The notes: generated by a model not told the origin, from the letters alone. DNA of 64,000 bases from Protoeuglena noctilucae (GCA_958009085.1 OY253683.1:124001-188000); one strand, 5' to 3'; counted from the stretch's first letter, positions 3,501 to 63,790 are shown. Made by a program: numbers and translations.

Positions 3501-6500
3501 CGGCACGTCCATGCTCTTGGCCATTCGCGGCTTGGGCGCGCCCCCCATGTCCTGGTAGGCACCTTTCCGTGGCAGGGAGAAGCTCTCTCGCGTCCGGCAG
3601 ATGTACGAGTGCCGCTGGTTGCGAACCACGTTGTAGCGCACAGGGAGGCGCCTGCGTGACAGGCGAACGAGTCGATGGGTGGTGCAGTGCCGCTGCATGC
3701 TCTTGCATGCTCGGTGAAAGCTCTGGTCTGCCATTGCCACACAACACAGCGTACCCAACACATGACGTGTGGCGGTGTGACGCACCGGTCTGCAGCGCGC
3801 TGCCTGTGGCTGGCCTCCTGCGGCGCCTCCTCCGGCGCATCGGCCTCGTCATCCGAGGAATCCCTCTCCTCGATGGCGTTCTCGGGAACCGGGTACTGCC
3901 CCTGCTTCATGATGGTCACGCGCACCGCAATGTAGCCCCTGCATGGCATAAAACGCGAGACGCTCATCTTGCGTGGTGAAGTGGAACAAGCCATGCTGAC
4001 CAGGCAGTGCTGTGTGACGCGGCTATCGATTGACAGCCTCGCCGGGTCCCTCTTTTGGTGTAACAGAAAGACACGGTCGCAGCGGCGGGGCAAGGCTCCC
4101 CGCTGCCCAACTCTGCCCTCCTCTTCCCCACCAACCCCGCTCTCCCAGCCCATCGTGCCACACCTCTTGGTGAACTTGGCCGCGTTGGTCATGAGGTTCA
4201 GGAGCACCCCCCTGACGCGGTCGGCATCGGCAAGCACGACCTCGGGAAGCCCGGCCATGTCGGGGGCCTTGAGGCGGCAGTCCCCCGTCTGGTCAATCTG
4301 CGATGTATGAAGCATGAGGGATTACACAGCGACATATAAAGCAGCCAGGTTGATATATATGCGACATGCGATGGGGACTGTCCACGCAAAAGCCCACGCA
4401 TCCTGAAAGCATGCAGGACAGGAGTGAGGCTGCAAGGTTCTCGCTACGTGACAAGGCGAGCAATCCGCTGCCGCTGCCCCCCACACCATCTCCTGGCTCT
4501 CTTGCCTCACTCACCATGGCGTGAATGGTCAGGTGGATGTCGTGCATTTTTATCTCATCTCATGGCTCATAGCTCACCATGGCGTGGATGATGAGGTGGA
4601 TGTCGTGCACCAGCTCCCGCAGGTTGACCTCCTGCCGCACCACGTCGAGCTGCTTCCCAGCCTCCAGTTTGAAATAGTCCAGGAAGTTGCTCACGGTCGA
4701 CAGCAGGATGGACCCGGAGACGCGGATCGTCGACGCCAGCTCGAACTGGTCGGGCGTCAGGGGCGAATCCAGGAGCATCTCTGCAGACGCCAGGCACCCG
4801 TTCAAAGGAGTGCGCACCTGCGTGGGAAGAGAGGCACAGCGTTGTGCATCTCGTTGCTTCCCACCTTTCCCAGCATAGCAACAAGGCTTTGCACCAAGGG
4901 CCTTGTATGTGTGACCAACACGCGGCTCATGGTCTCATTCGCGCGCCCCCCGGCCAGCTGGCTGGTCATGTGAAGCAGACCAGACAGAGAGAGATGCGCC
5001 TCGCCATGTGCCATGCTGCGTCACCTCGTGGCACATGAGGCTCATGAACTCTGACTTTGCCTCGTTGGATGCCTTCTCTCGCTCCATCATCACCAGGCGT
5101 GTCGCCGCCTCACGCTGCACCCGGCTCAGGTCCCTCTGGGCCTTGATGCGCTCCTGAGAAGGGCAGATTGAGAAAGCAGAGGATCACGACACGCTCATGC
5201 CCGGGCCGCGTGCAGAACGTGCTGTGGGTATCATCCGCATCGTGCTTTGTGCCTCGTGCGTAACGTGCTGGGGTGCCTCCCCTGCCATGAGAGCTTCTCA
5301 CCTTGGCCTGCATGAGCTCCCTGGCCGCCGCGTCCGCTGCTAACTTGTGGTTGGCGAACATCTGCCGACGGTACGTCTCAGCCAGATACGACATGAGGCA
5401 GCCGATGCTCCATGCCATCGCCACGTGCTCGCGGAGGTGGCGGGGGGCGCGGCCGTCCGCAGAGGCCATGCCGAGGGTCCCATTCGAGTGCCAGTAGAAG
5501 CTCAAGGCGGTGGGGACGGCGAGGCTTCGGACAGGGACAGGAACAGGCGCCGTGCTTGGCCGAGAACGTCATGCAGCACGTCCCATGCGCCTGACTCGGC
5601 CACTGCTTGCATGGGCTAGAAAACGGTCAGAGTTCTCACCAGATGGTCCCGAGCCACCACCGCACTTGCATGAAGGTCGAGATGCATATCAGGAAGAAGG
5701 CGAACAGCACGTAGTCCTCCGACTTGTCGGGGGGCAGGTTGCGCAGCATGAGGGTGATGGCCGTGGCCATCAGCACTGCGGGACGCGAGCAACACAACGC
5801 GTTCTCGCGACTGAGGCGGCTGTGATGGCGGCAAGGGACGCCTCAGTCACTGCGCCCACCTGTCAGGATGGCCTCTTCGTGACGAGCGATCTTGGTCTTG
5901 TAGCGCTTGGAGCACGAGTAGATGAGCAGGAGGACGACGTAGAGCACAATCATGTTGCCGAACTGCTTCGTGTATTCCAGCACGACGTCCAGGCGGGGCT
6001 TCAGCGGCCGCGCGAGCTTGTACACGAACCGGGACACGAAGGCGACCAGGTCGAACATGACGATGAACATGAGCACCGGCCACCGCCGCGCTGCCACCTC
6101 CGCCAGGTACTGGTCCTCCACGTCGCGGTCCCTGCGAGGCGGGGCCCGGCCGGTGAGAGCCCCAACGGTGCGCAGCGCTGTGTTGCACGCAGCGAGACGT
6201 AGCGCGCAGTTGCGCGGGGTGCTGTCTCAGCCGCGCACCTGAACGTCAGCGTGATGTTGTGTATGTGGATTGCCGCGGTGCTGGGGAGGAGGTCGCGTTG
6301 AATCTTGAGCTCGTCGAGCATATCCCCGTCTGCAAGGGCAGGGTCGCCGCGGCGTGTATAGGTGCCACGGAATGCGGGCGCAAGTCGCGCGCCAGCAGAC
6401 AAGTGTCATTCACTTAGCCAAGGACGCACCGCTGAGTCGGCCAGCGAGGGCGCCGAGCGCGACCTCTTCGCTCGGACGGATGGGGGGCCCCGAGGCCTGG

Positions 6501-6565
6501 GTGGACCTCCTGCGCGCTTCCTTGCTGCGTGCGTTGGAGGGGTCTTTCGTCGAAACCCATCGCAT
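524..6565 (-). CDS. Multi-exon hybrid histidine kinase: 6TM sensor, coiled coil, HisKA, HATPase_c, long linker, C-terminal receiver domain
   Basis: The spliced translation starts MRWVSTKDPS (ATG 6563-6565). It contains the H-box KSEFMSLMCHE|VRTPLNG, N-box DADRVRGVLLNLMTNAAKFT, G1 FEVVDTGVGIP and G2 TGGTGLGLSICSKQVAFLGG..GSTFWFSIPL. The receiver reads VLL|VEDNHINQKVA..VVLMDMLMPEMNG..AMTANA..FISKPV, with TGA at 524-526. Six hydrophobic segments lie at ~5350-6130. Confidence 0.92.
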
Positions 6566-7191
6566 GGACTAGAGAGGTAGACAAGTGAAGCAACGCGAGA
6601 CGCCGCGAGGAGCGCCAACGGATAGAAGGCACTTCGTTTCCGCGCGGCCAAAGGCTTTCGCGTCGTGCCATCCATACCCGTAGTTCCACAAGACCGAATC
6701 AAAGCTTCAGCAACGCGCTCAAGCAATACGGTCCATCGTGCCGCGCGGGCCGGCACATGACTGCCCGCGCACCTGTCGCGTTTGCGCCTCCCCGCGGGCG
6801 GGAGGCCGATTTCGTAATGCCGGGTGTCTTGTGCCCATGAAGCGCTGTTGTTTTTGCCGTTAACAGCCTTCACGCCGGTCCCCGCCTTCCCCGACCTCCC
6901 GGTCCCCGTCTCGAACCGCACCTCCAGCGGACTGCCGTCCCTGAAGTGAGCCCGCCCGCGCGGGCGTGGTGGCGACGACGGGAAAGCATCTTCCTCAGAG
7001 GATACCACCATCAGGCGCGTCGTCGTGCCCGCACCCTTCAACTGTGCACCGTGCCCGGCTAGACACGCCCACCGATCCACGCGGTGCGGCTCGGCACGAT
7101 CTGCGCGCCCACGGATGGCCTAAGAAGGCGCAGAAGTGAAGCATGCGATAGACGGGCTGCAGCGTCATGCAGCTGCAGCCGGCCCGCAGTG

Positions 7192-17416: not shown

Positions 17417-17500
17417 CGCATGTCACGCATGATCACCAGCGACCACATTGGTGAATCAAAGCACGGTTGCTTGAAAGCAAAGAACACGGTTGCGCTGTTC

Positions 17501-42400: not shown

Positions 42401-44435
42401 ATGCGGCACCTCGGCCTGGCGCCAAGCGCGGAGCTCGCGAGCGCAAGCCATAGTGTTTGCGCCATCCGCTACGCTCCTTTCCGTGCGGTGGGGACGCGCC
42501 GGGTGTGGCGCGCGCGTCCGGAGGCGAGGCTGCGGCAATGCAGGGCAGTGCCTGCGGCGAGGGACGAGAGTGGAGCGTGCAAGCGCAATTTCGAGTGCCG
42601 GGGTCGCGACGATGTTGTCGTTGGCGTAATTGGCGATCTGCACCTCAAGGATGCCGAGGAACATCTCTTCTCGGAGGCGCAGAGGCAGATGCGCCGCATC
42701 CTGGGGTGAGTGAGTGCCGAATCGCACCCCGGCATCGGCCCGCGCCGCGCCTCTCATGGAACCGCCTCCTCCCGCAGGTCTGCGCCGGTGGGGCGCGTCG
42801 TGCAGCTCGGTGACGTGGGATCCGGCAAACTCTCGGGCACTCGCGAGGCGTTCCTGGCCGCGAAGGGCTATCTTGAGGGGCTAGGTGTGCCTTTCATGGT
42901 GATTACGGGGAACCACGACCTCGAGGGCCCGATGTTTGAGACAGACGAGGAGAACCTGGCCGCCTGGGCTGACGTCTTCAATCAGAGGTGCGCAAGTCGA
43001 GTGCGTGCCGGGGGCTGCGGCGTCATGGGCCAGCCATGTGCCTCAGCCACGTGCCCGCCGACGCTCGCAGGCACTTCTGGTCGGCCGACGTGGGCCCTGC
43101 GGTGCTGGTCGGGCTGAGCACCGTGCGATACCGCAGCAACCCGCAGAGCCACCACGAGGTGTACATCGACGAGGAGCAGATTCGGTGGTTCGAGGACGTC
43201 GTGCGGCGCAACAGGTGCGCATGAGCGGCAGCGCTAATGCAGAGAGACACCAGTACGTGCTCACCACTGACGGTCGCTCCACGCCTGGTGTGACTCTGCA
43301 GGGACAAGCCTGTGGTGGTCTTCTCGCATGCCCCGCCCCTGGGCTGCGGGCTCAAGGTGGTCCAGGACTTGCACGTCAAGAATCGCTGTTGCTGGCTCAA
43401 CCACTCGGGGGACGCCCTGCGCTTCCTGCGCATCTGCCACGAGAACCCCAACATCCGCGTGTGGTTCTCTGGCCACTTCCACCTCTCCCACAACTACCGC
43501 GAGTCGATCTCGAGCGTCGGGACGTGCACGTTCGTGCAGACGGGCGTGCAGGGCAACTGCAACCGGGGTGAGAGGCGGTGGGCACTGCATGGCAACGGCA
43601 GCCGGCGACGCAGGTGAAGTGGTGGCCCTGCCATGGCAACTGCAACCGGGGTGAGGCGGTGGGCGTGGCAATGACGGCCCGGCGCAGGTCACGTGGCTCT
43701 CGCATCGCTGGCGCCGCTCGCCATGATCACTGGCAACTCGTCGCGTCGCAGATGGGCTGAGGCAGAGCCGCCTCCTGCGCCTCACATCCCAGGGTTACGA
43801 GGTCCAAACGCTCGACCACGAATCGGGCCAGACTCGCGTCGACGTGCGACACGACTGGCAGGACATGTCTCCCGCCGTGTCCCTGCTGGGGGAGGTGAGA
43901 CCCGCTGCCAGTCATTGGTGGGAATGGCGTACGCTTTCCCACGCCCTCACAAGACACGCTCTCATGTGTCTTGCCCAAGTGTCACGCCCGCCTGTCTCCG
44001 CTCGCCCAGGAGGAGCTGCTCTGCGACCCTGACGCCGGGTGGCTCTGCGGCCGGGACTCGTGCGCGATTGGGGAGGACGTGGATGGCGTGAGGTGGTTCG
44101 CTGCGGGTGGGGACTGCATGCTCGCACAGCAGGGGGGCCTGCTGGTGGAGTACAGCGTCGCGGGGCGCGCCCCCGTCGGGGTGGTCACGTTGGACGCGGC
44201 GCTGCCGAAGGACGGCCGGGGTTGGGACTGCTGGCTCGAGGACGCGGCTGGCAAGGCCGTAGTCACGGGGGACGGGTTGGACGCGGCGTTCGTCGTGCTG
44301 CGCGATGTGGCTACGGGCGAGGAGCAGCGGTTTCCACGCAACGAGCAGGGCACGTTCTACCGGATCTTCCAGCCCAACAAGTGGCAGAAGATGTTGCGGC
44401 AGCGTCAGATCTCTGGCGCTGAAGTGCTCGCTTGA
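42401..44435 (+). CDS. Calcineurin-like metallophosphoesterase with a transit-like N-terminus and a C-terminal extension
   Basis: All five MPP motifs are present: GDLH, QLGDVG, GNHD, FSHAP and SGHFH. Confidence 0.88.
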
Positions 44436-44772: not shown

Positions 44773-47700
44773 ATGATCGCGACTGCAAAGTCTCGCCCAT
44801 CCGCGCGCCCTCGCCCGCCCCCGGCCCTGCTACAAGCATGCCCCCATCTCGCCTCCACGGTTCGCGGGGTGGATAGGTACGGCCCCACGATCCCCGCAGG
44901 TCTCCACATGAAAGCAGGATTGTGCGTTCGCCGACGTCTCTGACGTCGCTTTCGACGGGGGGCCGCCGCGGCACGGCGAGATGCAACGCCCAGCGCAACG
45001 ACAGCGCCCAGGTGTCGCCGGGCATCTTCCCCGCGGGTCGCAAGCAGGCGTCCGTCTCCATTCCAGCTCTGTTTATCGAATGCACGGCGGATGAGGTCCT
45101 GGACGACGCGGAAACCGCAGGAACGCTCGACGAGGCGATTCAGGCCGGCGCGACGGCCGTGGTTCTGGGAGGCGAGCACGCGGACGCCGCCGCCGCTGTG
45201 CGCGGAAGATAGTGTGTCGATGCTCCGACTGCCTGGGCGACTGGGAGGAACCGCGGAGCTTCGCTGACGCCGCAGATCCGATGGGGGCTCAGGGTGGGGC
45301 TCGGCTGTACGAGGCGGCAGTCCAACTGAAGACCCTCCTGCGTGGGCGCGCCACGCTTCTCGTGCGTGACCGCGCCGACATGGCGAACGCGGCGGAGGCC
45401 GACGGGCTGGTGCTGAACGCGGGCGGGGTGCCAGTGGTGGTGGCGCGGCGCATGATGGCCGGTGCTGGGGTGCTGGTCGGGGCCACCTGCCGCACGGTGG
45501 ATGCGGTGGCGACGGCGGCCGCGGACGGCGCGAACGTGGTCCTGCTCACGGACACCTCCGCAACGTCCATCGCGGACGCCCGGCGTGCCCAGCGCGCCGC
45601 GTCGATCCCCGTCGTGGTGCAGGTGGGCAGTGCTGGTTGCTTGTAATGCAACTGCCTGACTTCTTGCGACATTCCCGGTTGCGAGCTGTCTTCGCGTCGC
45701 GTGCAGGTCGACGCGGTTGCTGTGGCGGAGGAGGTGTGCGCAGCGACGCAGGTGGACGGCGTGGCGCTGCCGCTGTCGTCGGTACGGCAGGACACGAGCG
45801 CCGTCGTCCGGCGGCTGCTGGCCCGCATCGAGGATTCTGGGGCCCCGCAGCCTTTGCCTTCGTCCGTGGACTTCTTTGGGCACGAGTCGGATCCCACCCG
45901 GGCGCGCATCGCCGACGCCGACGCGGCATCGACCGGGTTCCGCCCGGGCCGCGGGCAGCTCCTCTCCGACGAGACGGAGGCGCTGGTGAGGGAAACGAAG
46001 CGAGAAACGGCTCGATCGCGGCGCAGAAGTGTCCTCTTTGAGGGTTGCAGTCTCGCCCACCTTGACTGTGCCTGGAGCTTGTAACCCGGCGCTTGCGGCC
46101 GGGACGCTCGACGATCCGGTGGCTGTACGCAGGTTGTGAGGGAGAAGCGGACGCTGGGGACGGTGCAGGAAGTGCTGCAGGCCGCGTGCCCGGCGATGCA
46201 GGAGCTGGCGCTCCTGAGGGACGCCCTCCTGCAGCTGGACGAGCTCTTTCTGGTGGTGGTCGTCGGTGAATTTAATTCGGGGAAGTCGAGGTGAGGACGC
46301 GGTCGCGCACGCGTGCCGGGGCAGCGATGTCCTCGACCGTCGTCGTCGCCCTGCCCGACGCGCCTGCCTGCTTGGACGCACCCCCGCAGCGTGATCAACG
46401 CCCTGTTGGGGGGGAGCTTCCTTCCCACGGGCATCTTGCCGACCACAAACGAGATCAACGTGCTGAAATATGCGAGCGAGGAGGACGCGGCCGTGACCCA
46501 GGCAAGAGCGCTGAGCGCGGGCGGGGCATGCCTCGCGACGAGTGCGCAGGCTACGGTGCACGAACGACGATGGTTCGTGCTTATGTTGATTCGCCACGGC
46601 GCGTCCCTCGTCTGCGACCTCTCAACCTCGTATCGCGTCGCAGGAGGCGGACGGCCTGTACGTGCGCACAATCCCCGCCGAGCTGCTGAAGGAGCTGAGC
46701 GTGGTGGACACTCCCGGCACCAACGTCATCCTCGGCCGGCAGCAGCGCCTGACGGAGGAGTTCGTCCCGCGCGCGGACCTGGTGCTGTTTGTGCTGTCGG
46801 CCGACCGGCCCTTCACCGAGTCCGAGGTGCGAGGCTGACGTGACGCAGCTCACTGGCAAGCACAATCACTGGCGAGCTTGAGCACGTTCATTCATGTCGC
46901 TGCATAGTTGATAGTACTTTGGGTATCGCAGGTTGTGGCTGCAGCTGCAGCATGCACCGTCAGCTCCTCTCCCCATCGCAGGTGACCTTCCTTCGGTACA
47001 TCCGGCAGTGGGGCAAGAAGGTGGTCTTCGTGGTGAACAAGGTGGACCAGCTGGGCGGGGAGCAGGAGGTGCAGCAGGTGGTGCAGTTCGTGTCAGAAAA
47101 CGCCGCCAGTATCCTGGGGGTGCGCGACTCGGCCGTCATCCCCGTCTCGGCGCGCAAGGCTTTGGCGGCCAAGAACGCCGTGCGGGACAGTGACGGGGAG
47201 AGCAGCGGGGTGCTCAGGTGAGGGTGTGAGAGCAGCGGGGTGCTGAGGTGAGGGTGTGAGGGACAGGGACGGGGAGAGCAGCGGGGTGCTAAGGTGAGGG
47301 TGTCTCTGCAAATCGACGCGGCAATTCACATGCACCTTTCTTCTCCCCTCCTCTACTGCATAAGGTCCCATGCATGCCATGCCATGCGCACCTACCACCA
47401 GAGGGTTTGTAACCCTCAACCCCCCTGCCGGGCTGCATGTCTTCTAACAGCTGCCCTGCGCGTGCGGCCCCCCCGCAGCACGGTGGACGTAGACGAGCTG
47501 CGGACGTCCGAGGAGTGGGCAGAGTCGCGCTTTGAGAGGCTGGAGCAGTTTTTGGTTGTTTTCCTGGGCGGCCAGGGCGGGGGCGGGGAGGTGGTGCGGC
47601 TCAAGCTGCAGACGCCCATCAGCGTGGCATTGGCGCTGCTCGAGGCGGCAGAGAGACAGATCGCCGGGCAGCTGCGGGCGGTGGAGGGAGACCTCGCCGG

Positions 47701-49412
47701 GGTGGAGGGCGTCAGGCGCGTGCTGGTAGCAGTCACGGCTGATCGCAGTCACGGTGTGCAGTGAGGGCTGCGCCTGCGGTGCACTGCTGGAGGGTCTGAA
47801 GGGATGCGTCGTGTGAGTCTGTCGTTCGCAGGAAGAACATTCGGGCGTTCTGGGACAGCATGGCAGAGGACTCGGGGGTCCAGGTGGACCGGGTGATGGA
47901 GGCGATTGAGGGGATGTATCAGGTGAGTGGTCGTAAGAGTTGACCACATGAAGAGGGGATGTATCAAGTGACTGGGCACGGGGGTAGGGTGGGGGTGTCG
48001 GAGGCGGTTGCAGTGACAGACAAAGACTAAGCATTGCTCACGCGGCACCGGTCTTTAAGCATCAGGCGTACCCGCAACGCCCCATGTGCCATGCGATGGC
48101 GTCCCTTGCACACATGCACCCCGCCCAGCTGCTTGCTTGGTACGAGTGGTACGATCCACCCCGCTGTCGCTGCGCAGTGTCTCGAGGACGCGGTGGACGA
48201 CGTCCTTCAGATCCAGGCGTGGGGCAAGGCGGCGCAGTACCTGTTGGGGACCAACGACCCCTCGGCCCTCCCCATCGCGCGCGCCCTCAAGGGACAGGTG
48301 TTTGGGGGAGCGGTGGACCAAGTCGAGGCCGTGGCGGCAGAGCACACCGACTTCGTCCGAGAAAACAGGCGAGGGCCGCGTGTTGAGAGCTATAGCGCAG
48401 CATGGGATGTGACGTGCGATGTTGAGTGCATTGCGTGGTCGGCTAATGGGGTGCCTGACCGGGTGCTCCCACCCGCCTCGTCCCGCAGCTTACAGCAGCT
48501 TCAGAACTACCAGGCATGGGCACGCGCGAGGGCAGAGAACTGGGGGATCGAGCTGCCACCCGCGGACGTGCCGGCTGAGCTGCGGCCTGAGTCAAGTCCC
48601 AGGGAGGGCCCGAACGCTTTGGCCCGGGGTATCGTGTCGGCCATCCGGTGAGGCACGGGGAGGATGCGACACACTGAGTCATACTCAGCAGAGCAGCAAT
48701 GTCCCATCACAGGCGCCCCTTTGCGTGAGCGCCGGATGGAGCGGATGTAGCCTCGCAGCTGGGAACTCCCAGAATGCCCGCTCCCTCGCAGGGAGTTTGA
48801 CCAGGAGGCGGCGGTGGTGGAGCTCGAGGCGGGGACCAAGGAGGCGGTGGTGACGACCGCCACGTACCTGGGAGGGGCGGTGGCGGGGGTGTTCCTGCTC
48901 ACGTCCATCATGCAGACGGGGATGGAGGACTTCCTGTCGCTGGTGCGCAACTTCTGACTCGGGGCCCGTGGCGCGCGTGCTGCCCTGCCTGAGCAGCTGC
49001 GACGGGTGCGCCGCTCTTGCCGCAGTGTCTGTGCGCGGCTGCGGCGTACGCGGGGATCATCACGCTGCCCCTGCGGCGCGCCAAGGTCAAGGCGTCGGCC
49101 CGGGGGCAGATCCAGGGCATCAAGGACCGCGTCGCGGGGCTGATGGCGGAGGAACTGGAGACGGGGGTCTCGGCGGTCGAGCGGGCCCTGGAGAAGGTGC
49201 GCTTGCCGGCTGGCTCGTGCGATGCTTGAAACGCAGCGCGATTCTCATGATGCGCTGCGGAACGAGCGCGGCGGTCGCGTCCGCAGGCGCTGCGGCCCGT
49301 GGAGGAGCGCGCCCAGTTGGAGAAGCAGCGCGTCGAGGAGCTGCAGGAGATGTTACGGGAAGCAAAGATTCAGGTCGAGAAGCTTCAGGATGACGTCAAC
49401 AGGATCCAATAG
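44773..49412 (+). CDS. FZL: FZO-like chloroplast dynamin-related GTPase FZL
   Basis: The N-terminal region reads IFPAGRKQASVSIP and RLYEAAVQLKTLLRGRATLLVRDRADMA (thiamine-phosphate-synthase-like barrel). The GTPase motifs are G1 GEFNSGKS, PTTNEI, DTPGTN and NKVD. Two C-terminal TM segments and a coiled coil follow, with TAG at 49410-49412. Confidence 0.93.
47192..47303 (+). repeat. Triplicated FZL exon end plus donor (gagagcagcggggtgctnag|gtgagggtgt)
   Basis: Copies lie at ~47192-47227, ~47228-47257 and ~47268-47303. Confidence 0.95.
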
Positions 49413-52554: not shown

Positions 52555-55500
52555 ATGCCCGTAAAGGGCGCGAAGTCCCGCCAAAAGGCGGGCGGATCCA
52601 CCAACCCCGAAGACCCAATCTTCGAAGCCTGCGGAGGCGAGGGAGCAGCTCGCCCTGCGGGTGCCCGAGGCTTGCCAGCGCGCCTCAAGTCTCCGATGCG
52701 CAACTCAATGCGTTCTATCGACGCTTTGGAACCGCAGAGATTGCAAAACGCTTCGGGTCGACGCCCAGGGGGCGCGCGACCGAGCGCGACGTCGGCGGGG
52801 ACCTCCGCCGGCTTTCCGACCTCCGTGAGCACCGGCGCAGCATATTCGCTGCATGCGCCTATTCCAAGCGTCAGTATACGCGCGGTCTGGCAAGCGGCCC
52901 CACGAAGGATGCTCTGAGTCGGGAGCATGTGGTCCTTTGGGGCTTGGCGGAAGCGGTGCTGTCGTCGTCCGTCCTCGACGCGGACGTGGCCATCGCGCGG
53001 GTCAAATACGGCACAGACTGGATGCCGAATGGAGGCGTCGACTTGATTCGCAACGCCGTGGCGCTGATGGCGCTGCTGGGGACCGCGGAGATGGACGCGG
53101 CGTGGGGCCATGCGCCCGGCTCCGTGGCGCATTGGCTAGGAGGTCCCCAGCTGCGGGACCTGTGCAAGGAGACGGCGAAGCGCGTCGATGAGCTGTTCTT
53201 GGTCCCCGGCATCGACGCCAAGGACTACACCAAAGGTGCGCAAGCGCTTTGCTCGACCTCACCACTGTGCGTCGCCACTGTGCTTTGCTGGCCTGCCGCC
53301 GATTCGCATCGCTCGCGCCGCGTGATTTCGTGACGCGCCGCATCGCGTGATCCCGCCCGCAGTGCACGAGTCGTGGTGGGCGCTTGCAGCGGTCTGCCTT
53401 GCCGTGGCGGCCGTGCCCTTCGCGATGGAAAAGCCTCTCTTGGAGATCGGCAACGCAAGCACGCATTACGAGCCATCCACGGCGACCGATCCGTGGAAGG
53501 TCTGCGCGCTGACGTCCACCACAGCCGTGTGCGTGCACCCGTGCTGCACCCGCATGACCTTTGGGGTCGACCCAGGTGCGCTTACTGGGGCTGGCAGGTG
53601 GCAGGACACAGCAATCAGACACAGCAACACTGCGCTTGCTTCATGACTGAGCATCTGACAGCTGACGCTAACCCTGTCGTCACGCAGACGTGCTGCCTGG
53701 AGGGAGCACGGAGGTCTGGGACCGTGTGATGAACACGGGCTCTGCGGGCGGGTGAGCGACGGATGCTGCGACAAGCGATGGGCAGGGACCTTGTTGGATG
53801 AGATGAGGCAGATGGATTCACGTGCTTCGTGCTTTGCTCCGCGCCACGCAGGTTCGGCGAGCCGTCCCTCATTCACGACATTCGGACGGAGATCGCCTGT
53901 CCCGCCCTGCTCACTTCGTGCTTTCTGCTTATCACGGAGCCCCTAGACTTCATCAGTGCCAGGTGCGGGGCTGCGGCAGGGTCGCATGCGTGATGATGGG
54001 CATGACGCCAGCCTTACTGTGACAGCGCAGCAGCACGAGCGTGGGTGGCATGACACCACAGTAACACTGAGTTTTGCTCGTAACACCACCGCCACTTAAC
54101 CAACGCAGGCTGGACGCCTGTGGCATCCCGCTCCCCACTTCGGAGTTGGGGATCGCGCGTTGGCCCGTGGCCTTCCTGAGGGCGTGCCTGTGCCGGAATC
54201 GACAGGACCGGGACATGACCGGGTTCTCCCAATGGGCCTTATGGTCCGTGGCGGGAAGTGAGTGGGGCTTGTGGGCTGTGGTCAGTGTGCGTTGTGAATC
54301 GCAGGCCTGTCTAACAAAATGTCTGCTGTAATGTTTCATCCTCCCTGCTGTGCTGTGTTTGGGTCGCCGTGCCCCTTGCCACCCCGCGTGCCACCCACCC
54401 CGCATGCCAGCCACCCCGTGTGCCAGCCACCCCGCATGCCAGCTAATCTACTCGCACCTGCACGCAGAGTTCACGGCGCTGTGCCGCGTGCTGGGTGCCT
54501 TTTCGAGAGTCCAGTCCCTGTCAGCCGGCCAGGACATCGCCCCTCTGGTCGACTTCCAAGCCGACCCCTGGGAGCACAGGGCCAGGCAGCCCGATGAGGT
54601 GGACACCGCCATCGGCACCACAGCTAACGTGGAGTCCATTCTGCGGTGAGTCACAGAGTGGCATATGACGTGTGGCATGGTATGGCTCATGGTATACCCT
54701 GTATGGGGTGCGGTTGCGGCCAGGGTGGCAGGAGTGGTGGCGTGAGCTTGGACGCATGGCACGCCCGAGCCTGAGCGAGCCCCGCCTAAGCTTGGGCCAC
54801 GGACCACGCAGCAACCACATCCCGCGCCCCTGCCTGCCCGCAGCATTGCAAAGCGGGAGGCGACCACGGGCGGTCACATGGTGGTGGTGGTGACTAACCC
54901 GGCATACAAGCGGCGCCCACCCGCCGCCGGGGGTGGCCTGGATGTGACCCAGAGCATGGCGGATCTCAAGAAGCGCCTTGTGAAGTACATCGACAACGCG
55001 GTCGTGTTTGCGAGGTGCCCTGAGGTGAGAGGACTGTCACTGCAAGGCATGCCCGATGCAGCTTGTGGCAAGCAGGTTTGCACGGATGCGGGTGCCACGA
55101 TGGTTGTGTTGACAGCCACTGCTGTCCCCGTGCTTTGCAGACCTTCGAGTTGTCTTTCTGGAGGAGGGCGGAGATCGAACTCACCGTGGCGTCCCGTCCG
55201 GGCCCTATGGTTATGGTGAAGGACCTGGCAGAGGCGATGCCGCACCTGGTGAGGGAGTGACTGTAACTGGGAGTGTAGCGATGCCGCACCTGGTGAGGGA
55301 GTGACTGGAATGGTGAAGGATCTAGTTGAAGTGATGCCGCACCCTGGCCCTGACTTTGCTGACCATAACCGTGCCACCCTGACTATCTGCCCGCGTTTCG
55401 TGCTACAGGTGCGGGTGGAGGAGCTGCGGCACGTGATGCAGGTTTTGCTGAGCTGCGTGGGCGAGGCGAGGCATACCCGCTGCGACTGCGAGCCGTGCTG

Positions 55501-58500
55501 GGCCCAGGAGTACGGGCTGTCGGACGGTTTAAGCGAGGGAGGCAGCGACTGCGAGGGGTCGCATTCAAACGACATCACCCAGGGCATGGTGCTGAAGGCC
55601 CTGCTGGATTCCCTGTCGGACGAAGAAGAGTTCCCCATGTGCATCGACTGCCTGCGGTACGCCTGCATGAGGGCCACAGGTGAGGGGCTGACGGGGGGCT
55701 CTGGCATATGCGCGCGTGGTTGGTTGCGACATGTCAGCACCGATCGCCTGCTTACTTGTCAACACCGATAGCCTGCCTGCATGTGATGCTAAGATCATAC
55801 CACGGCTGCCGCTGGGCTCGATCGCTCGTCCCATCGTTGGTCGCAGCGGGCCGGCTGTCTGCGCCGCCCAGCGTAGGGCCGGCGGCGCAGGGGGCATCGC
55901 GGCTGACGTACGAACACCTTAAGAGCCATACAGTCGGCACGGGAGAGGTGAGGGACGGGCGGCGGGTGCGGGTGCGGAAGATGGCCCACCGCCTTTGGCG
56001 CGGGCGGAGGCAGTGGGCGGGTGGTTGCGTGCGAATCGATGCCGAAGCATCTCGACTCGCTCTCTGCAGATGCTCTTGCCGTGCTTAACGGTGGTGCAGT
56101 AACACCTCACCTCGCTTCCCCCGCTTCCCCCACAGATGCTCGCCCTGTGCTGGGCGTTGTGGCTCCTGCACCTCGGCATCTCCCTGCAGGAAGTGAACCC
56201 ATCGTCGCTCATCCCACCCAACACGCTGGTGCGTGCGGGCGTGACGAGGCTGCCGTGCACAACGCACTTTGTGTACACACATGTCGCTCCCCGCCATTCA
56301 CGTTGCAACATCAGAACACAGCACAGTTCGCTCCCGTGGTGTCCCGACATCGCCGCCCATGCCTTGCCTCGCCCCGCCTGCGCCCACCTTCTCTTCCTCT
56401 CCCTCCCACGTGCCGCCCCTCGTCTCCTCCCGCAGTGGGTGATGCACGGTCTGTCCGTGGACCGCCGCCTGCTTGAGACCTGGCCTGGGAAGCCCCCCTG
56501 GGCCCGCCTCTGGCCCGCCCTGTGCCTCACCGACCGCCGCGTCCTCGTCGCCCTCGGCGCGGCCACCTTGGCTCTCTTCTCAGACCCAGAGTCAGCGCGA
56601 TACCTGGAGCCCGAGAGAGACTACCCACCGGGAGCCGAACCCTGCCTGTGGAGCGAGCAGTGCGGCTGGGCCAACCTCATGCTGTCGGCTGCTCTTGCGC
56701 CGGAGCCTGAAGCCGAGATGGCGCTGCGTTACGCGGTGCAGCGGGTGGTGCTGAACGCGTGCGCGCACTACGCCTTTGTCCGCACGAGAGAGAGTGAGGA
56801 TGAGAGTGAGGATGTGGGGGAGGATACGGGGGACGAGGAGGACTGGGACACGGGCACCATCAAGAGCGAAGTGGTGGTGCGGTCACTGGAGGACATGGTC
56901 GAGGACTTGGACCTCATCCGGCCCTACGAGGTGAGAGTGTTGTGAGAGTGATAGAGGGCATGGTGAAGGACATGGACCTCATTCGATTCGACCCTACGAG
57001 GTGAGAGCGTGGGTGACGAGGCGGCGCACAGGGGCAGCAGTGGTGGCGGAGTCTGTGCTTGGGCAGTCCATGCCGTTCATGTGATTGGGCAGTGCGTGCA
57101 GCCGTGCAGCCTGTGATTCTCCATCTTCACCTGCCAGCGAAGATCCTGTCGGCTGCCTCAACGCAGATGGTCATGTCGCAAGAGAACATGATGCTGGGGG
57201 CGTACCGGAGCTGTGCCCAAGGGACAGCCGTGGTGTCCAAGGACCGGTCAGCGACGGAAGAAGCGCAGATCGCCATGTCGAGGCTGATGGCCGTGTGCGA
57301 CAAAATGTGCCCCGGTGAGTGCTGCTGCAGCTACCAACACCCGCACAGGCCCACCGAACCCGTTTTGCATCACCGCCACGCTCATCCAGCGTCACCACCG
57401 CGCTCATCCAGCACCACTGCTGTGCTCATCCAGCACCACCGCTGCGCTCACCCGCCCCGTTCTGCCGCGCGCAGGTCGCCTCTCTGCCTTCACCTGCACG
57501 TGCCCCTGCTGCGTGCTGTCCTTGGCCCACAAGTGCGTGGCCATGCGATCGTTTTTGGAGAAGGTGTTTGCCCTGCAGGGCAAGCGCAGTGGCATCCACT
57601 TGCCCGACGTGACGGTGAGGGATGGATGTTGAGGACCGGTCGTTTCGAATCGGCAGCTCCATCGAACAGGCACACCTGCACCTCGCATTGGCACTGCCGT
57701 CTGTGGCATGACGCGCCTCTCTCCCCATCTCCATTGACTGACACCCGTGACAGCATGACGAACCTCTACTTCCCGTCTGTGTTCAACCCATGACTGCATG
57801 GCTTGCTCTACTTCCCCTCTGTGTTACAACCCATGATTGCGTGACATGCCTCACTCTCTGTCCCCACCGCAGCCAATGATTGCGGAGGTGGCGGTGTTGG
57901 TCGCCTCCATGTCCTGGGTTGTCGACCTGCCGTGGAAAGAGCTCATGGCCATGTCGACGACTGACATCAACCAATGGTGACCACCACAAACTCGACCATC
58001 GCAACTTGTGTGCCGGACACGATATGGGCCCTTTGCCTTCCTGTGACCGAGCAGCCCACACCCCTCTCGCCTGCCCCTCAGCTAGCCAGCACTCACCCCA
58101 CACCCCACTCGCTTGCTACCCACCGACGGCACGGCACTCACCTATCCATCGCTCATCCCACGCCCCTCTCGCCTCCCCGCAGCATCCCCGGCGCCGAGGT
58201 CGTCTCCGAAACCATCTCCACGCTGCAGCGCGAGCGGGCCAGGGTGACCCTGCAGGGCATTAGCGACAACTTTGATCGGTACTGCCGGGACAACGGGGTC
58301 AAGGCGAACAGCGTCGCGCCAGGGCGCACGAACCGCCTCGTGGGCGCCATGATCGCCCTCCTCGTCACCGCCGTTGCGGGGGGGTATGCCCCCACCGACC
58401 CCTACCCGGGACTGGCGTACTCAGTGCGCGTGCCCAACGGGGCATGGAGGCACGGGGAGTGGCCGAAGGCGATGGGGGGCAAGCGGTGGCACACGACACT

Positions 58501-61500
58501 CCTCCCCATCAACGAGTGCTCGTACCTCGTCGGCATGCAGTGCCGCCGGCTGGTCGTCCCTGACCTGCGAGAGTCAGGTGCGTCGGCACACCCACGCGCA
58601 ACGTGCTGTGCATGTGCTATGCATGTGCTGTGTATGTGCTCTGCATGTGCTCAGGCTGTGCTGTACTGTGTATGTACGATGCATTGCTGCGAAACGCCTC
58701 TCCCACCTCAGCTCATCGCGTCCTTCCCTGGGTGTTGTCCTGTAGCCCAGCCTCCGCTCAGCTCCCGCTCGCTTCATCTGTCGCAGTGGCGTCGTGGTTC
58801 CGATTCCTGGCGCACAGCGGGTGCCGAGTTGTGCCGGAGGACGGGGACATGTCGCCCGTGCGAGTGGCGACGGAGGTGGTGGTGAGGATTGATGGGTGGA
58901 GATGGGTGGCAGTGAAAGTAGAGATGGGTGGCCCAAGTCGCCCACCTCTCCCACTCTCCCTCTACCCGCAATCCATGCCCGCCCACCTCTCCCTCTCCCC
59001 CTCCCGCAGTCCGCGCACGTCCGCCTCACGATCGGCTTCCTCTCCCACATGCACGAGATCGCGCGGAGGGCGGGCAGCTCCTTCCGCGACCTCATCCGTG
59101 CGATGTGGTCCGACATCCCGTCCACCGCAAGGGAGACGGGCCCCTCTGAGCCCGCCGCCAGCGACCAGCCCGGCACCGACGGAGATCTGCAGCGCGTGCT
59201 TGCGGCTGCGGCTGCTGCCAAGGACAACAGGACCCCGACTCTGTGAGTCGCGAAGAGCGAGGGGAGCGCGTGACATGCCTGCGCGCATCGACTGTGGTGG
59301 ATCGTCACGCTTGTCGACTGCCGTCGCCTGTTGTGGACCGTCACACATGTCGTGTCGACTGCCCTGGGCCGTCTCTCGCCAAGCAACGGACCTGCTTGGT
59401 GCGTTGCGTTGCTCGCTGCTCACCCCCACGACCCGCTGTCGACTCAGGGTTGGGAATTTCGGGGAGGAAACAGTGAGGATGGCCTGGGTTTTGAAGCGGG
59501 AAGACGCCATGGAGGCGCTGCCGATGATAGACAGGTGAGGGGCGGCATGGTGAGAGGGGTGAGAGGTGAGAGGTGGCATGTGAGAGGGGTGCGAGCAGTG
59601 AGAGGTGAGACTTGGCGTGGCACCTGCCGAGCGAGAAGAGCTGCTGGACGCACGGCCGCCACACACGCGTTGCGCCCAGTCCGTCCTATCTGCGCCTTGA
59701 CGGCCCCCTTGTGGCTCTGTTTTATCGCAGAAAAGAAGCCAAGACCCTGCAGGTCTTCATCTCAGAAGAGGACCCTGGGAAAGAGGACCCAGAGTACATG
59801 AAGGACGTCGCGGAAGTCATGAGCCGTTTTACCACCGCCGCCGGGGTCATGCGCAGTGTGCTGCGGGCGCTCCTGGTGGGGAACAACCTGGAGGGAGACT
59901 GGGGGCAGGAGGGGCGGAGTGCCCTGGCGCAGGCCCGCACACGCCTGCTCATGCCGCCAGCAGGGGCGCCGGAGCTGTGGGTCGAACCCGTGTGGGGGAC
60001 GGTTACCAATTTCTTCCACTGGCAGCCGGCACAGGGGGGCGCGGCGATGCTGGGGGATTGGATGGCGGCGTTTGGCCTGGCGACTCGGATCGACTACGCG
60101 GAGCTGTGGAGGGTGAGGGGTATGTGGGGGTGACGGGACGTGAACCGTGCAGAGCTGTAGAGGGTGAGGGGTGTGTGGAAGTGAGGGCCGGTGTCATCGC
60201 CATGCCGCGCCGCACCCCAGACGCTCACCGCGTCCCGGCCCGGCACGACGAGGACCGCCCCTGTCACTGTGACATGCTTCACACACCAGACGAGCACCCT
60301 GTCTCTGTCGTCCCTCGCAGGCCTTCCAGGACCGCCGCCTCGCGACCCTCCTCGCCTCCCACCACCCCTGGGAGCAGCACGGCGAGGGCGAGAAGCCGCC
60401 CGCCGGCCCCGTCAGCGTCTTGGAGTTGGTCGCCGCCGTGCCCTCGAGCGTCATGGTGCCCGCCGTCGTCTCGCAAGTGGCAGATGCGGTGCAGGTGAGC
60501 GCGGCAGTGGGGCACAAGGCGGTTGCGCGTGTCACAGTGAGACGGGGCAGGTGCACGTGGGCTGCGTGGCGCCTGATGGCTGGGCTTAAGTGGGCTTCTT
60601 TGGCATCAAATGGGCTTCGCTTGTAACAATCAGGCTGCTTTGGTATCTCGCCACAGCCTCGCTGCCTCGCACACGCGCAAGCGTCCGTTCCCTGCTCCCA
60701 CACAGGCCATCGACTCTGTCCGCAGGCCCCGGTGCGGCCGCAAGGACACGGCCTGGACTTCCTTCTGGGTCCGACTGAAGCGTTTCCTTGACAGCAGCGC
60801 CGTGCCTCGCCCCAGTGCCGAGCACTGGATGGGATTCTACGACAGTGTCTATGCGGGAGAGGAGGTCGGCGCAGCCGGCCTCGAGAGGACGCGGTGAGAT
60901 GCGAGCCGTGGAGCAGACGAGCGCAGACCAGGCCAATGCAACCAGCGATAACACGGCTCGCCCCCATCGCCCGCTGCCAACGCTGCCGCCGCTGCTGGAC
61001 CACGCTCCTCTTCTCCGCTCTCAGGTATTACATCGAGCAGGCCCTCCTGAGCGCCGATGACGCCAAGGTGCCGCTCCTATCGCTGCTGGCCGCGCCCGTC
61101 AAAGGCCTGCCGGGCACGTTGACTGGCCCGGCACCCTTTGCCGAGTCTCTGCGGTCCTTCGTGCGCAACCCGCCGCTGCCCACCTCCGCGGAAGTGCACC
61201 CCTGGGAGATCACCGTGCTGGCGGTGGCCGAGGTGCGGGGGGCGGGGCGGCGTGCTGTGGGGGTAGGATGTTGGAATGTGCTGCACTGGGTGGGGACGCC
61301 GGAACGTGCTTTGACGCGGCGCCGACGGGGCGACACGAAAGCCCCGCGACAGCCCCATCACAGCCCCACGACCCTTCCGCTCTCGCACTGCTGAAGCTGG
61401 GCTCCGTTATTTGCGCGCTCCTTGGCCTCGCCTTGCGGCACCGGCGCTGCGCCCTTCCCCGCAGATATTCTCGTTAATCTACAAATTCGCGAAGAACTTT

Positions 61501-63790
61501 ATCGAAGCCGCGGGCGGCCTATCGGGTCTCTTCACGGACCCCGTGCAGCACATCCCCTGGCCGGGGCGGGACTGGCCGGTGATGACGGACCAGCTGGAGG
61601 GCAGGGCGATGCTGCGGGTGGCCTTCCTGTGCCTCATGGACCCTCCCGCGAACGTGGTCGGCAGCGCGGGCGGCAAGAAGAAGAAGAAGGCGTCGGTTCC
61701 CTGGCCCGCCAGCCCCGCATCGGAGGCGTGGCTCTTCTACTTTGGGTGCGTAACGTGACTTGCGTCTGCATGTAGCTGGGGTGCGTGCGGTGTCCTGTCG
61801 TGTCGTGTCGCCAGCCTGAGCGCTGAGCGCACCCGTGCCCTAGTGAAAGCGACCCTTGCGGCAGATGACGAGGCTCCCGTTTTGCAGCTGTGCGGCCGTG
61901 TTGCTGCCGCCTTGAGCGTCAGAGCTACATGGCTGCCCGTCACCCATCCAAGCCACATGCCTGCCCATCACCCGCGCCCTCACCATCGCCCGCAGGACCG
62001 TCAGGACCTCCAATGAGCGCTGGGCCGACCTGGGACTCCACGTGCAGCGCGTGGCGGGTCTGCTTAAGCCCAGCCGCGCTGGGTACCTGCCCCGCGTCGC
62101 CAACCTACCCCCGGGGACATCGGAGGCTCTGCTGGTACAGCAGGTGGCGCAGGCGCTGGGACCGCACGTGACGGCGGAGGAGCTGGTGAGGGTTGCGTGA
62201 CTGTGGCTGTGATTGTGATGGGTGGAGAGTGCGCGCAACTGTTACGGTGGTGGAGCTGGTGAGGGTGCAAGCAGGTTAAGCTCGCGTTGTATGTGCAATG
62301 TCGCACTCCTGTCGCCTCCCCCGCAGCTGGACGACGACGGCCGCCGCGTCCGCTCCCAGTCGCGTCCCCTGGTGGACCTCTTCCTGTCCGTGCGTGCCTT
62401 CGTCCCATTCACGCGACTGCGCTTCCTGCCCCTGCACCACCGACCCTTCGTGGACGCCTATGCCGAGATGGCCGAGGCTGTGTGGTGCGTGCCTGTGCGG
62501 GAGGGGCAGACGATGGCTGTCTATAGAGCTCTCTAATGGTCATTGTTGACGATGTCATGTTCCTTGCGAGCCAATGCGACTAAGTGGGTGCGACCCAGCT
62601 TGCAACACGCTCGGCCCGCCGCAGCATGGCAATGGCACACAGCCTCTCTTGCACGCAGCGCGGCCCTGGCAGAGCCCCTGCCGAAGCTGCCGGACATTCT
62701 GGGAGATCCGAGCGGGGAAGGCGAAGTGGCGCGGGCGTTCGCGGATGCGCGGCGCTCTGCGGTGGCGAGGAGGGCGGTGGGCGCCGCGTTCCCCGCCCTC
62801 TTCCTCTACCTCCAGGAGTGCTCGACGCTCACCGCCGTCATGATGCTGCTGGTGCAAAACCCCAGCGCGGCGGTGGCCCTGATTGACGCCCCGGTGAGTC
62901 ACGCAGCGCTCTGTGGTGCTTGGATAGCGCTCTGGCATGCCCTCTGTTTCTCTGTCACAATCGATGTCATGCTGTCGCTGCCACCTCACAGCGCCCACCT
63001 CTCAATGGCCACCTGTCGGCCCTCCATCGCAGGTCGCCCCCGCCTACGCTACGGTGATGGAGACGACCCTCTTCAGAAACTGCCAGCAACACTTGCAGAA
63101 GCTGTGGAGCGGTGAGGGCTGCCGTGACATGCCTTCCTACCTCACAGACTGTGAGTCCTCGTGCTGACCAATTCAACGCTGCCTGCCACTCAGTTCATTA
63201 GAAGGACTGAAACCCTCGCCATGTCCCATCCAATGTACGCGACCGTTCTCTCAGCCCCGCATCCCACGCCCTCCCCACCGTACTCTGTGCGCCCAGCCCC
63301 GAGTCTCGACTCCCCCCAAATCGTGGCAGACTTGACCAACATGACCCAAGGGGCTTTCTTGCATCTCTCTGTCATCATGGCCGTCGCCACCCTCACCTCG
63401 TTCGCCACCGTGCCCCCACTGACGGTGCCCAAGCGCGACATCGCCGCGGCTGCTGACACGGGGCCGCTGCTGCGCGGCGCCAGCAACTTCCTGCATTACC
63501 TGGAGGAGAGGGTGGTCCTGGACCCGGGCCTCCTCACCACGTGCCCAACCGCCTTCCCCCGAAAAGACGACACGATTGAGGCGTACCAGCCGCAGCCGGG
63601 CGCGGGCGGGGATTTCTGGGAGCTCTCCGAGCAAGGGGCCAAGTGCTACGCGCAGTTCGCGATCTTGCGGTTCCAGATGCTGGCACCCAACGAGCCAGGC
63701 ATCGACGGGCTGCTGCCGGTGCGTGTGGATGAGAATAATATAATGCAATGTCTTATGGTTGAGAGTATCCATACGTGGTGGGAGCTGTAG
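52555..63790 (+). CDS. Large multi-exon (~29 exons, roughly 2,000 aa) protein of unknown function
   Basis: A continuous phase-compatible exon chain runs from MPVKGAKSRQK (52555) to ..ESIHTWWEL* (63790), with strong gtgag/gtgcg donors and Ycag acceptors. No family is recognised. Confidence 0.65.
55213..55343 (+). repeat. Duplicated exon end plus donor in the large orphan gene
   Basis: gcgatgccgcacctggtgagggagtgactg is identical at 55234-55263 and 55278-55307. A further diverged copy of 55213-55246 lies at 55310-55343. Confidence 0.95.

What the first reader, a model, noticed from the sequence alone, without database searches (positions are those of the whole stretch)
4510..62266. Window-wide splice-junction echoes: introns carry diverged copies of the neighbouring exon end plus its splice site
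Seen in sequence: about 14 cases in six unrelated genes, each a ~23-60 bp copy spanning an exon-intron junction and lying ~30-140 bp away in the same intron. Donor echoes (real/copy): kinase 4573-4609/4510-4546; NEMF 31916-31942/31832-31858 and 32431-32475/32322-32366; phosphoesterase 43552-43583/43635-43664; FZL 47192-47227 (three copies) and 47908-47930/47953-47975; orphan 55234-55263/55278-55307, 56894-56937/56959-57007, 60101-60127/60152-60178 and 62171-62193/62244-62266. Acceptor echoes: NEMF 32025-32083/32139-32198 and ~32962-33008/33065-33097; FAM13-like 34776-34812/34847-34883. A likely further NEMF pair is ~30765-30790/30905-30931. The copies range from identical to clearly decayed, which suggests a continuing process. 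Established: tandem duplication is a proposed route to intron gain. Inference: either a strong local-duplication mutation process filtered by selection (junction-spanning copies leave one intact exon), or a junction-targeted mechanism that lengthens introns and creates decoy or alternative splice sites.
Basis: partly seen in the sequence, partly recalled or inferred. Interest (0 to 1): 0.72.

Follow-up and report, generated by a model that had tools for sequence, protein, structure and literature searches.

The report
Copied splice junctions inside algal introns
In this small green alga about one intron in fifty carries a second copy of the neighbouring exon end and its splice signal, usually set off by a short stretch of new filler DNA, most likely scars of sloppy DNA repair that survive because splicing uses the outermost signal; it shows one way introns grow and which of two competing splice signals wins.

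Summary
Real. All 15 listed pairs are in the sequence; read-derived contigs carry 8 of 9 laid echoes unchanged. In 1.04 Mb of this genome, 53 of 2,047 predicted introns carry one (41 donor, 14 acceptor sides; swap control 0-2 each), clustered in long-intron genes. Twelve are plain tandem copies. Forty-three are spaced: about 24 exon bases, a median 8 intron bases, then 10-82 bases of unique G/T-rich filler. RNA contigs use the outer site in 2 of 2 testable cases; no new intron is made, and mRNA, telomerase and mobile-element origins failed tests. Best reading (0.45): polymerase-theta-type repair duplications whose copy degrades into filler on entering the intron, filtered by selection. Rivals: old tandem copies with fast intron turnover, scars between diverged haplotypes, a junction-coupled process. 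The scan noted plain tandem echoes before in a sea-urchin gene and an invertebrate LIG1. New variant of a known kind.

The parts
4573..4609 (-). Histidine-kinase gene: functional exon end (32 nt) + GTGAG donor of intron 4298-4577
4510..4546 (-). Donor echo, 34/37 identical, 26-nt spacer (4547-4572)
30326..30434 (-). NEMF: functional exon end + donor 30402-30434, echo 30326-30358 (1 synonymous difference), 43-nt spacer; second echo 30202-30251
30734..30931 (-). NEMF: functional 30874-30931 (53 exon + 5 intron nt), echo 30734-30791; 6 differences, all synonymous; 82-nt spacer weakly similar to the post-echo intron
31497..31673 (-).
   Evidence: present in read contigs
31832..31942 (-). NEMF donor pair: functional 31916-31942, echo 31832-31858 (GTGAG to GCGAG), 57-nt spacer, single-copy in the genome
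   Evidence: read contigs
32025..32205 (-). NEMF acceptor pair: functional 32025-32091, echo 32139-32205, 47-nt spacer; 2 synonymous differences
   Evidence: read contigs
32322..32475 (-). NEMF donor pair, 45/45 identical (36 exon + 9 intron nt), 64-nt spacer; skipped in read contigs (repeat collapse or real absence)
32962..33097 (-). NEMF acceptor pair: functional AG 33004-33003 used in RNA contig; decayed echo near 33065-33097
34776..34893 (-). Acceptor pair in gene 34633-36797: functional 34776-34820, echo 34847-34893 with indels, 26-nt spacer
   Evidence: read contigs
43549..43664 (+). Phosphoesterase-like gene: functional donor 43568 used in RNA contig; echo 43632-43664; spacer alignable to post-echo intron (28/40)
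47180..47303 (+). FZL donor 47218 with two plain tandem echoes (periods 30 and 46)
   Evidence: read contigs
47908..47975 (+). FZL donor 47923 with echo 47953-47975, 22-nt spacer
   Evidence: read contigs
55213..55343 (+). Orphan gene donor 55249: echo 55278-55310 (11-nt spacer) and older exon-only copy 55310-55343
56889..57010 (+). Orphan gene donor 56931 with echo 56954-57010, 13-nt spacer, indels
60101..60178 (+). Orphan gene donor 60113 with echo 60152-60178 carrying a stop codon
62171..62266 (+). Orphan gene donor 62186 with echo 62244-62266, 50-nt spacer

Best explanation
The echoes are repair-born local duplications sieved by splicing. Inferred steps: a break or nick 12-53 bases inside an exon is repaired by extension of one end across the nearby splice site; the copy is faithful through the exon and the first few intron bases, then degrades into slipped, A/T-richer filler once it enters the G/T-rich low-complexity intron end; the extended end is joined back (polymerase-theta-type end joining) to the original end. 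The product is exon - new exon end + splice site - filler - original exon end + splice site - original intron. Shown: the layout, its mirror image at acceptors, normal intron length from the echo donor onward, and use of the outer site in two RNA contigs. Only events that restore a whole exon end survive, and only where the first donor or last acceptor is used, so the inner copy becomes intron and decays neutrally. About one in five events is a faithful plain tandem copy. The junction bias comes from where copying fidelity and selection change, not from the spliceosome aiming the damage.
For: Layout: 43 of 55 echoes have a spacer >=10 nt; intron overlap <=12 nt in 35 of 43, longer than the exon part in 4 of 43, against 35-38% and 44-46% in uniform-placement simulations. 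From the echo donor onward the intron has the gene's usual length (+6 nt, n=26), so copy + spacer is the addition. Spacers are G/T-rich on the exon-to-intron strand at both donors and acceptors, A/T-richer than the post-echo intron (46 vs 41%, n=37, p=0.007), single-copy in the genome in 3 of 3 searched, and weakly resemble the post-echo intron in 11 of 38 (controls 5% and 15%) but with a transition:transversion ratio like chance alignments (28:52 vs 707:1310), unlike the 70:40 of decaying tandem copies. Spaced and tandem classes have the same exon divergence (87/1096 vs 21/262) while the intron side is 11% diverged in one and mostly unalignable in the other. Repeated echoes in one intron often start at nearly the same exon base (24/24 in L090; 25/21/20 in L073), as iterative priming from one end would give. 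A POLQ-type gene is present (HTH_61 upstream of DNA_pol_A on C11) and no second HTH_61 gene (HELQ) was found; in C. elegans loss of HELQ gives tandem duplications with templated and patchwork insertions through polymerase theta, and plants lacking HELQ show patchwork fillers (PMC8654963, section 12 and passages). Selection: acceptor echoes are three times rarer than donors (14 vs 41; symmetric in simulation) and weaker than the functional site in 11 of 14 (p=0.004).
Against: Spacers are only modestly self-repetitive or locally templated (6-mer self-cover 0.31 vs 0.21 shuffled, but control introns of the same genes give 0.25 vs 0.21; spacer vs post-echo p=0.27), weaker than a true patchwork should be. 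Acceptor echoes do not show the normal residual length (-54 nt, n=8). Synonymous differences are in excess (46:40; p=0.006-0.065) and are not lower in events with no replacement difference (23/100 vs 23/127 sites), which needs an error-prone new functional copy. Twelve exon-only copies lack the splice site. No ancestral (empty) site was seen: both metagenome scans found nothing. The HELQ absence rests on one exon-by-exon search, and the trait is shared with plants, so it does not explain why this alga is rich in echoes.
Confidence: 0.45

Rival explanations
1. Ordinary tandem duplications spanning the junction, old enough that the intron halves have turned over, while the exon-derived half decays more slowly or is homogenised with the real exon by short-range gene conversion. 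The short intron overlap is then an ascertainment effect.
For: Simulated tandem copies with intron sequence changing 3-5 times faster reproduce the overlap (median 4-6 nt, 78-86% <=12), the exon divergence (7-9%) and the lack of internal copies. Residual spacer similarity in 11 of 38; 43549 and 31497 look like decayed tandem copies. In the PsbY repeat gene (L087) repeated exons are nearly identical while their introns are unalignable.
Against: The same simulations give as many donor-less copies as junction copies (91:88; observed 12:43) and 2-3% exon divergence in the tandem class (observed 8%). In the 12 tandem echoes the intron side is only 1.4 times as diverged as the exon side (94/829 vs 21/262). 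With equal rates the overlap is a median 11-16 nt and tandem outnumbers spaced. No transition excess in spacer alignments.
Confidence: 0.22
2. Scars of aborted recombination between diverged haplotypes: a broken exon end copies the other haplotype's exon end, splice site and intron start, cannot re-anneal because the introns differ, and is end-joined. The spacer is then the other haplotype's intron start.
For: Explains similarity ending at the splice consensus, invisible intron-internal events, normal residual intron, weak spacer similarity and the synonymous excess that is uncoupled from replacement changes (NEMF 9 synonymous, 0 replacement). Failed SDSA plus end joining is a described route to tandem duplication (PMC8654963 section 12).
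Against: No diverged haplotype is seen: wild RNA contigs show no listed substitution over the laid stretch, a wild contig's product differs at 1 of 261 residues including a read-through intron, NEMF is single-copy. Spacer alignments lack a transition excess; spacers are A/T-richer than the post-echo intron. Overdispersion of the synonymous share is not significant (p=0.17).
Confidence: 0.17
3. A process tied to splice sites themselves (breaks at R-loop or nucleosome borders set by splicing, or repair primed at the GTGAG motif) places one end of the duplication a few bases inside the intron.
For: Uniform and microhomology-only models all fail. 36 of 41 donor echoes sit at GTGAG donors against 41% of all and 51% of same-gene donors. 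Only two coding-end copies were found, one ambiguous.
Against: Echoes are confined to genes with long, strand-skewed introns (other introns 166 vs 110 nt, p=5e-12; 26 same-gene pairs vs at most 15 in 2,000 shuffles) although all genes are spliced. Echo tails match the intron, not the next exon, so spliced RNA is not the template. Acceptor echoes mirror donor echoes on the other strand. No sign of selection to keep or destroy echo donors.
Confidence: 0.12
4. Assembly artefact (haplotype or consensus stutter).
For: The one perfect 45-base pair is skipped in read contigs; echo-rich loci often lie near assembly gaps; the DNA runs are probably the assembly's own sample.
Against: 8 of 9 laid echoes are in one read-derived contig at full depth with no substitution; copies differ from each other and carry unique spacers; differences respect codon structure.
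Confidence: 0.02

Closest known systems
Human F7 intron 7 37-bp VNTR with 5' pseudo-sites (Borensztajn et al. 2006, PMC1557585; abstract and outline seen)
   Same: Repeat whose first unit spans the exon-intron border; intact downstream pseudo-donors stay silent and the most upstream donor is used. Echo donors here score as well as the real ones (13 weaker, 15 equal, 13 stronger) and the first is used in the one donor case covered by RNA.
   Different: F7 is one head-to-tail minisatellite. Here it is a genome-wide class (about 2% of introns), at both intron ends, and 43 of 55 are two copies separated by unrelated filler.
Repair-mediated duplications and 'doublets' (Pace et al. 2009, PMC2671141; abstract, introduction, start of results and passages seen; Thomas et al. 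only as cited there)
   Same: Short, nearby, non-tandem duplications with filler of 1-68 nt and microhomology, some copying exons and splice sites.
   Different: Those are 50-619 bp, on average 1.2 kb apart and not reported as anchored at splice junctions; here copies are 15-65 nt, 30-155 nt apart, with one end 3-12 nt inside the intron. No empty site could be checked here.
Tandem duplications from polymerase theta joining of failed SDSA ends (Kamp et al. 2021, PMC8654963; section 12 and passages seen)
   Same: Duplication of the stretch copied from a break end, with templated or patchwork insertion at the joint; POLQ-type gene present here.
   Different: Experimental C. elegans events are about 100 bp to 10 kb; dependence on POLQ is not shown here and the patchwork signal is weak.
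Intron gain by tandem duplication (Rogers model tested by Hellsten et al. 2011, PMC3265369, passages seen; potato RdRp case, Ma et al. 2016, PMC4974935, abstract seen; repeat-flanked new introns, PMC2809761, passages seen)
   Same: Duplication involving splice signals; the potato case also crosses an intron-exon border.
   Different: Those create a new intron. Here the copy is absorbed into an existing intron and intron number does not change.

Membership tests
Intron gain by tandem duplication (Rogers type) | Duplication creates a new intron using GT of one copy and AG of the other | tested here: not met
   Copies lie inside existing introns; RNA contigs join outer donor to normal acceptor in 2 of 2 cases
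Junction-spanning minisatellite (F7 IVS7 type) | Head-to-tail units without spacer | tested here: not met
   Met by 12 of 55 echoes, not by 43 of 55
Junction-spanning minisatellite (F7 IVS7 type) | Most upstream donor used, intact pseudo-donors silent | tested here: met
   RNA contig uses 43568, not the echo (1 donor case); echo donors as strong as real ones; low-level use not measurable from contigs
Repair-mediated duplication / polymerase-theta end joining | Filler templated from flanks or patchwork | tested here: inconclusive
   Above shuffles (p=0.008-0.03) but control introns are also above; 11 of 38 resemble the post-echo intron
Repair-mediated duplication / polymerase-theta end joining | Empty pre-insertion site showing what was added | not testable with these tools
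   No relative genome or metagenome contig found; length argument only
Repair-mediated duplication / polymerase-theta end joining | POLQ encoded | tested here: met
   HTH_61 at C11:229876-230154 upstream of DNA_pol_A at C11:224953-226137, same strand
Repair-mediated duplication / polymerase-theta end joining | Events depend on POLQ | not testable with these tools
   Needs genetics
Introner or other mobile element with target-site duplication | Inserted sequence repeated elsewhere in the genome | tested here: not met
   3 of 3 spacers searched match only their own place (3 of 43 tested, search skips simple repeats)
Reverse-transcribed spliced mRNA insert | Copy continues into the neighbouring exon across the intron | tested here: not met
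   Run of match to the neighbouring exon 0-3 nt in 42 of 43; the one exception was a tile-edge artefact
Telomerase healing | Filler made of the telomere repeat | tested here: not met
   Telomere is TTAGGG; 0 copies in 1,700 nt of spacer

The most novel reading that the evidence does not exclude
A mutational process coupled to exon-intron borders rebuilds the functional splice junction itself: the working exon end and splice site are the new copy, the old junction is pushed into the intron, and the filler is either de novo synthesis or the intron start of another lineage. Repeated rounds would build the long, strand-skewed introns of about a tenth of this alga's genes and leave roughly a thousand natural splice-site competition experiments in one 26-Mb genome.
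Probability: 0.2. Interest if true: 0.8.

Novelty: new variant of a known kind. Interest (0 to 1): 0.55.

Why it matters
How introns lengthen in compact genomes and how the spliceosome chooses between two near-identical sites in short introns are both open and rarely testable at scale. Here about 2% of introns (40 of 1,903 outside the window; roughly 1,000 genome-wide by extrapolation) hold a matched pair of splice sites 30-155 bases apart, so deep RNA-seq would read out the choice rule directly (first donor regardless of strength; last acceptor only if stronger). The spaced layout, anchored a few bases inside the intron at both ends, is not what random tandem duplication predicts, and one more strain genome would show what is added. 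Practically, such echoes mislead gene predictors (seen at L056, L028) and collapse in short-word assemblies.

Tried and rejected
Global alignment of spacer against post-echo intron (5 of 43 at p<0.1 vs echo-intron controls) lacked power; local alignment found weak similarity. Uniform copy+filler and uniform paste models and seven microhomology-only paste settings (junction copies 15-33% of detectable events, overlap <=12 nt in 25-42%) do not fit. Equal-rate tandem decay does not fit. Selection to disable echo donors: not seen (7 changes in 196 positions +1 to +5). Frame-preserving use: distance modulo 3 is even (18/17/20). Regression of intron excess on copy and spacer length was too noisy. 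Stop-codon borders as a test of splice specificity gave 2 hits, one possibly a donor: inconclusive. Depth bins cannot tell whether the 32322-32430 loop is covered by another contig. Both metagenome scans were empty. No second NEMF copy. The careful tree did not finish; only the quick tree is reported. Ten literature searches found single-locus cases and general mechanisms but no genome-wide report of spaced junction copies; the library lacks most subscription papers, and no supplements were read.


Full report
Setting. The window is C16:124001-188000 of a 26.3-Mb, 27-contig genome, 65% G+C, with TTAGGG telomeres. A NEMF exon is 53-63% identical to core chlorophyte and plant proteins, and a quick tree of the N-terminal part places it with the pedinophyte YPF-701 (SH-aLRT 98, both rows on long branches, the partner flagged for odd composition). 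So: a marine green alga, probably a pedinophyte.

The observation. All 15 named pairs are there. I built a self-training gene model on the window plus 98 tiles of 10 kb from 22 contigs (1.044 Mb; tiles chosen by me, not at random). It predicts 2,050 introns, median 119 bases. Of the 12 RNA joints shown (15 of 52 rows shown, 3 of them DNA rows), 7 were training seeds; of the other 5 the model matched 4 and missed one donor. A composition-aware self-alignment then found, at >=22 bits, 41 donor and 14 acceptor echoes in 53 of 2,047 gap-free introns, plus 12 exon-only copies. Intron swapping gives 0-2, 0-2 and 1-2. A read-derived DNA contig covers 31351-32321 and 32431-51350 without substitution, confirming 8 of 9 echoes laid; the perfect 45-base pair is skipped, which cannot be told from repeat collapse. 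The DNA runs are one sample, probably the assembly's, so this checks the assembler, not the species.

Distribution. The window is rich (13 of 144 introns vs 40 of 1,903; 22 of 98 tiles have any). Echoes cluster by gene (26 same-gene pairs, shuffle mean 4, maximum 15) in genes whose other introns are longer (median 166 vs 110) and more G-rich and C-poor at the 5' end. 36 of 41 donor echoes are at GTGAG donors (41% overall, 51% in the same genes).

Which site is used. RNA contigs from a marine metatranscriptome (one study) use the first donor at 43568 (piece 43299-43566, then a 142-base piece fitting the next exon) and the last acceptor at 33003 (piece 32593-33001). Only 6 of 55 echoes would be in frame and stop-free if used, and copy distances are even modulo 3. 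Echo donors are as strong as real ones (13/15/13), echo acceptors weaker in 11 of 14 (the model's own choice of site may add to this). Acceptor echoes are three times rarer though geometry is symmetric. This fits position-based choice of the first donor, as reported for the F7 minisatellite (PMC1557585, abstract), and purging of strong upstream acceptors (inference).

Two classes. Twelve echoes are plain tandem copies: exon side 21/262, intron side 94/829 different, about the ratio expected when one exon copy is constrained. Forty-three are spaced: exon part 5-53 bases (median 24), intron part 3-33 (median 8; <=12 in 35), then a spacer of 10-82 bases; exon side 87/1096 different. Of 16 spaced intron-internal pairs, 5 overlap an echo, 2 belong to the mis-modelled 31497 acceptor echo, 2 to mis-modelled acceptor echoes in L028 and 1 is a microsatellite, leaving 6. 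Implanting the same geometries uniformly in these genes' introns gives 1,520 detected internal against 690 junction copies (copy + filler) or 1,108 internal, 612 exon-only and 499 junction (paste), with intron overlap exceeding exon part in 44-46% (observed 4 of 43). Microhomology-driven pasting also fails.

What the spacer is. G/T-rich read from exon into intron at both donors (G 0.42, C 0.10) and acceptors (C 0.50, G 0.06 on the sense strand); A/T-richer than the post-echo intron; not telomeric, not mRNA-derived; single-copy in 3 of 3 genome searches. From the echo donor onward the intron has its gene's usual length (+6, n=26), so for donors the echo looks like the old junction and copy + spacer the addition; acceptors (n=8) do not show this, and length bias blurs the contrast. 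The spacer resembles the post-echo intron in 11 of 38 cases (5% for other introns of the gene, 15% for adjacent pieces of one intron); a true copy 25% diverged would be caught 82% of the time. The mismatches in those alignments show no transition excess, unlike decaying tandem copies.

How the exon copies differ. Third positions carry 58 of 109 differences; replacements include stops, so echoes decay. But synonymous differences are in excess in the spaced class (46:40; p=0.006 to 0.065 depending on the transition ratio assumed), are as common in events with no replacement (23/100 sites) as in the rest (23/127), and the functional copy more often has the A/T base than in the tandem class (18 of 46 vs 1 of 10). 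This is suggestive, not settled: overdispersion p=0.17 and the clock simulation assumed uniform ages.

Mechanism. Shown: layout, mirror symmetry, clustering, outer-site use in two cases, failure of random placement. Inferred: a break in the exon, extension across the splice site, loss of fidelity in the low-complexity intron end, end joining. Precedent: tandem duplications with templated insertions from polymerase theta acting on failed SDSA ends, and patchwork fillers where HELQ is missing (PMC8654963, section 12 and passages); short nearby repair duplications with filler in vertebrates (PMC2671141, parts read). The genome has a POLQ-type gene, one clear Ku match and no second HTH_61 match. 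I give this 0.45. Old tandem copies with 3-5 times faster intron turnover reproduce the short overlap but predict too many donor-less copies and too young a tandem class; the PsbY repeat gene shows that exon repeats can stay alike while introns diverge in this genome: 0.22. Scars between diverged haplotypes explain the synonymous excess but no such haplotype is seen: 0.17. A splice-coupled break process: 0.12. Artefact: 0.02.

Against what is known. It works like the F7 pseudo-donor array in outcome and like repair-mediated duplication in form. It is not intron gain by tandem duplication (PMC3265369 passages; PMC4974935 abstract; PMC2809761 passages), not an introner, not a retro-copy. Ten searches found no genome-wide description of spaced, junction-anchored copies; Gao and Lynch 2009 on internal gene duplication was seen only as a citation and may bear on this. 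Earlier notes of this scan describe plain tandem echoes in a sea-urchin gene and in an invertebrate LIG1; they are unchecked leads and do not mention the spaced class.

Verdict. Observation confirmed and extended to about 2% of introns; interpretation partly supported; new variant of a known kind; interest 0.55, with the filler's origin as the open point that one more strain genome would decide.

Noticed in passing
window 31460: One base is missing in the assembly inside a NEMF exon: RNA contig X1 and DNA contigs X5, X8 all carry an extra letter, so the apparent frameshift is an assembly error.
   Followed up: yes
L087:5537-6357 (G000 C21): PsbY polyprotein gene with internal repeats: repeated exons differ at about 6 of 220 bases while the introns at the same position (105 and 83 bases) are unalignable; differences gather near the intron borders.
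   Followed up: partly
whole sample: GC-AG introns look common: GCGAG starts 249 and GCAAG 48 of 2,047 predicted introns; 3 of 12 RNA joints shown fit GC donors.
   Followed up: no
whole sample: Introns are G-rich in the 5' half and C-rich in the 3' half, extremely so in echo genes, so the halves are compositionally complementary; possible end-to-end pairing was not tested.
   Followed up: no
window 13823-14022 and 31151-31350; L003, L028, L031, L075: 200-base gaps often lie in or near echo-rich, purine-skewed genes; read contigs run on past 31351 with a further short repeat, so the NEMF gap may hide more echoes.
   Followed up: no
L035:6661-6738: Intronic (CCCTCA)n array, the complement of the donor-like word TGAGGG and one letter from the telomere repeat.
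   Followed up: no
L056:6405-6542; L028:1759-1971: Acceptor echoes (single and triple) that misled the gene model into a micro-exon or a skipped exon, so true echo counts are a little higher.
   Followed up: partly
L010:7691-7805; L075:5548-5734: Spaced copies of a coding end placed in the downstream non-coding region; one may be a donor echo.
   Followed up: partly
window 52555-64000: Predicted 2,000+ residue, 30-intron gene with no Pfam match in 8 exons tested; runs off the window.
   Followed up: no
window 57367-57454, 57764-57849, 54378-54443, 58602-58688: Plain intron-internal tandem repeats (periods 22, 42, 16, 11) in the same orphan gene.
   Followed up: partly
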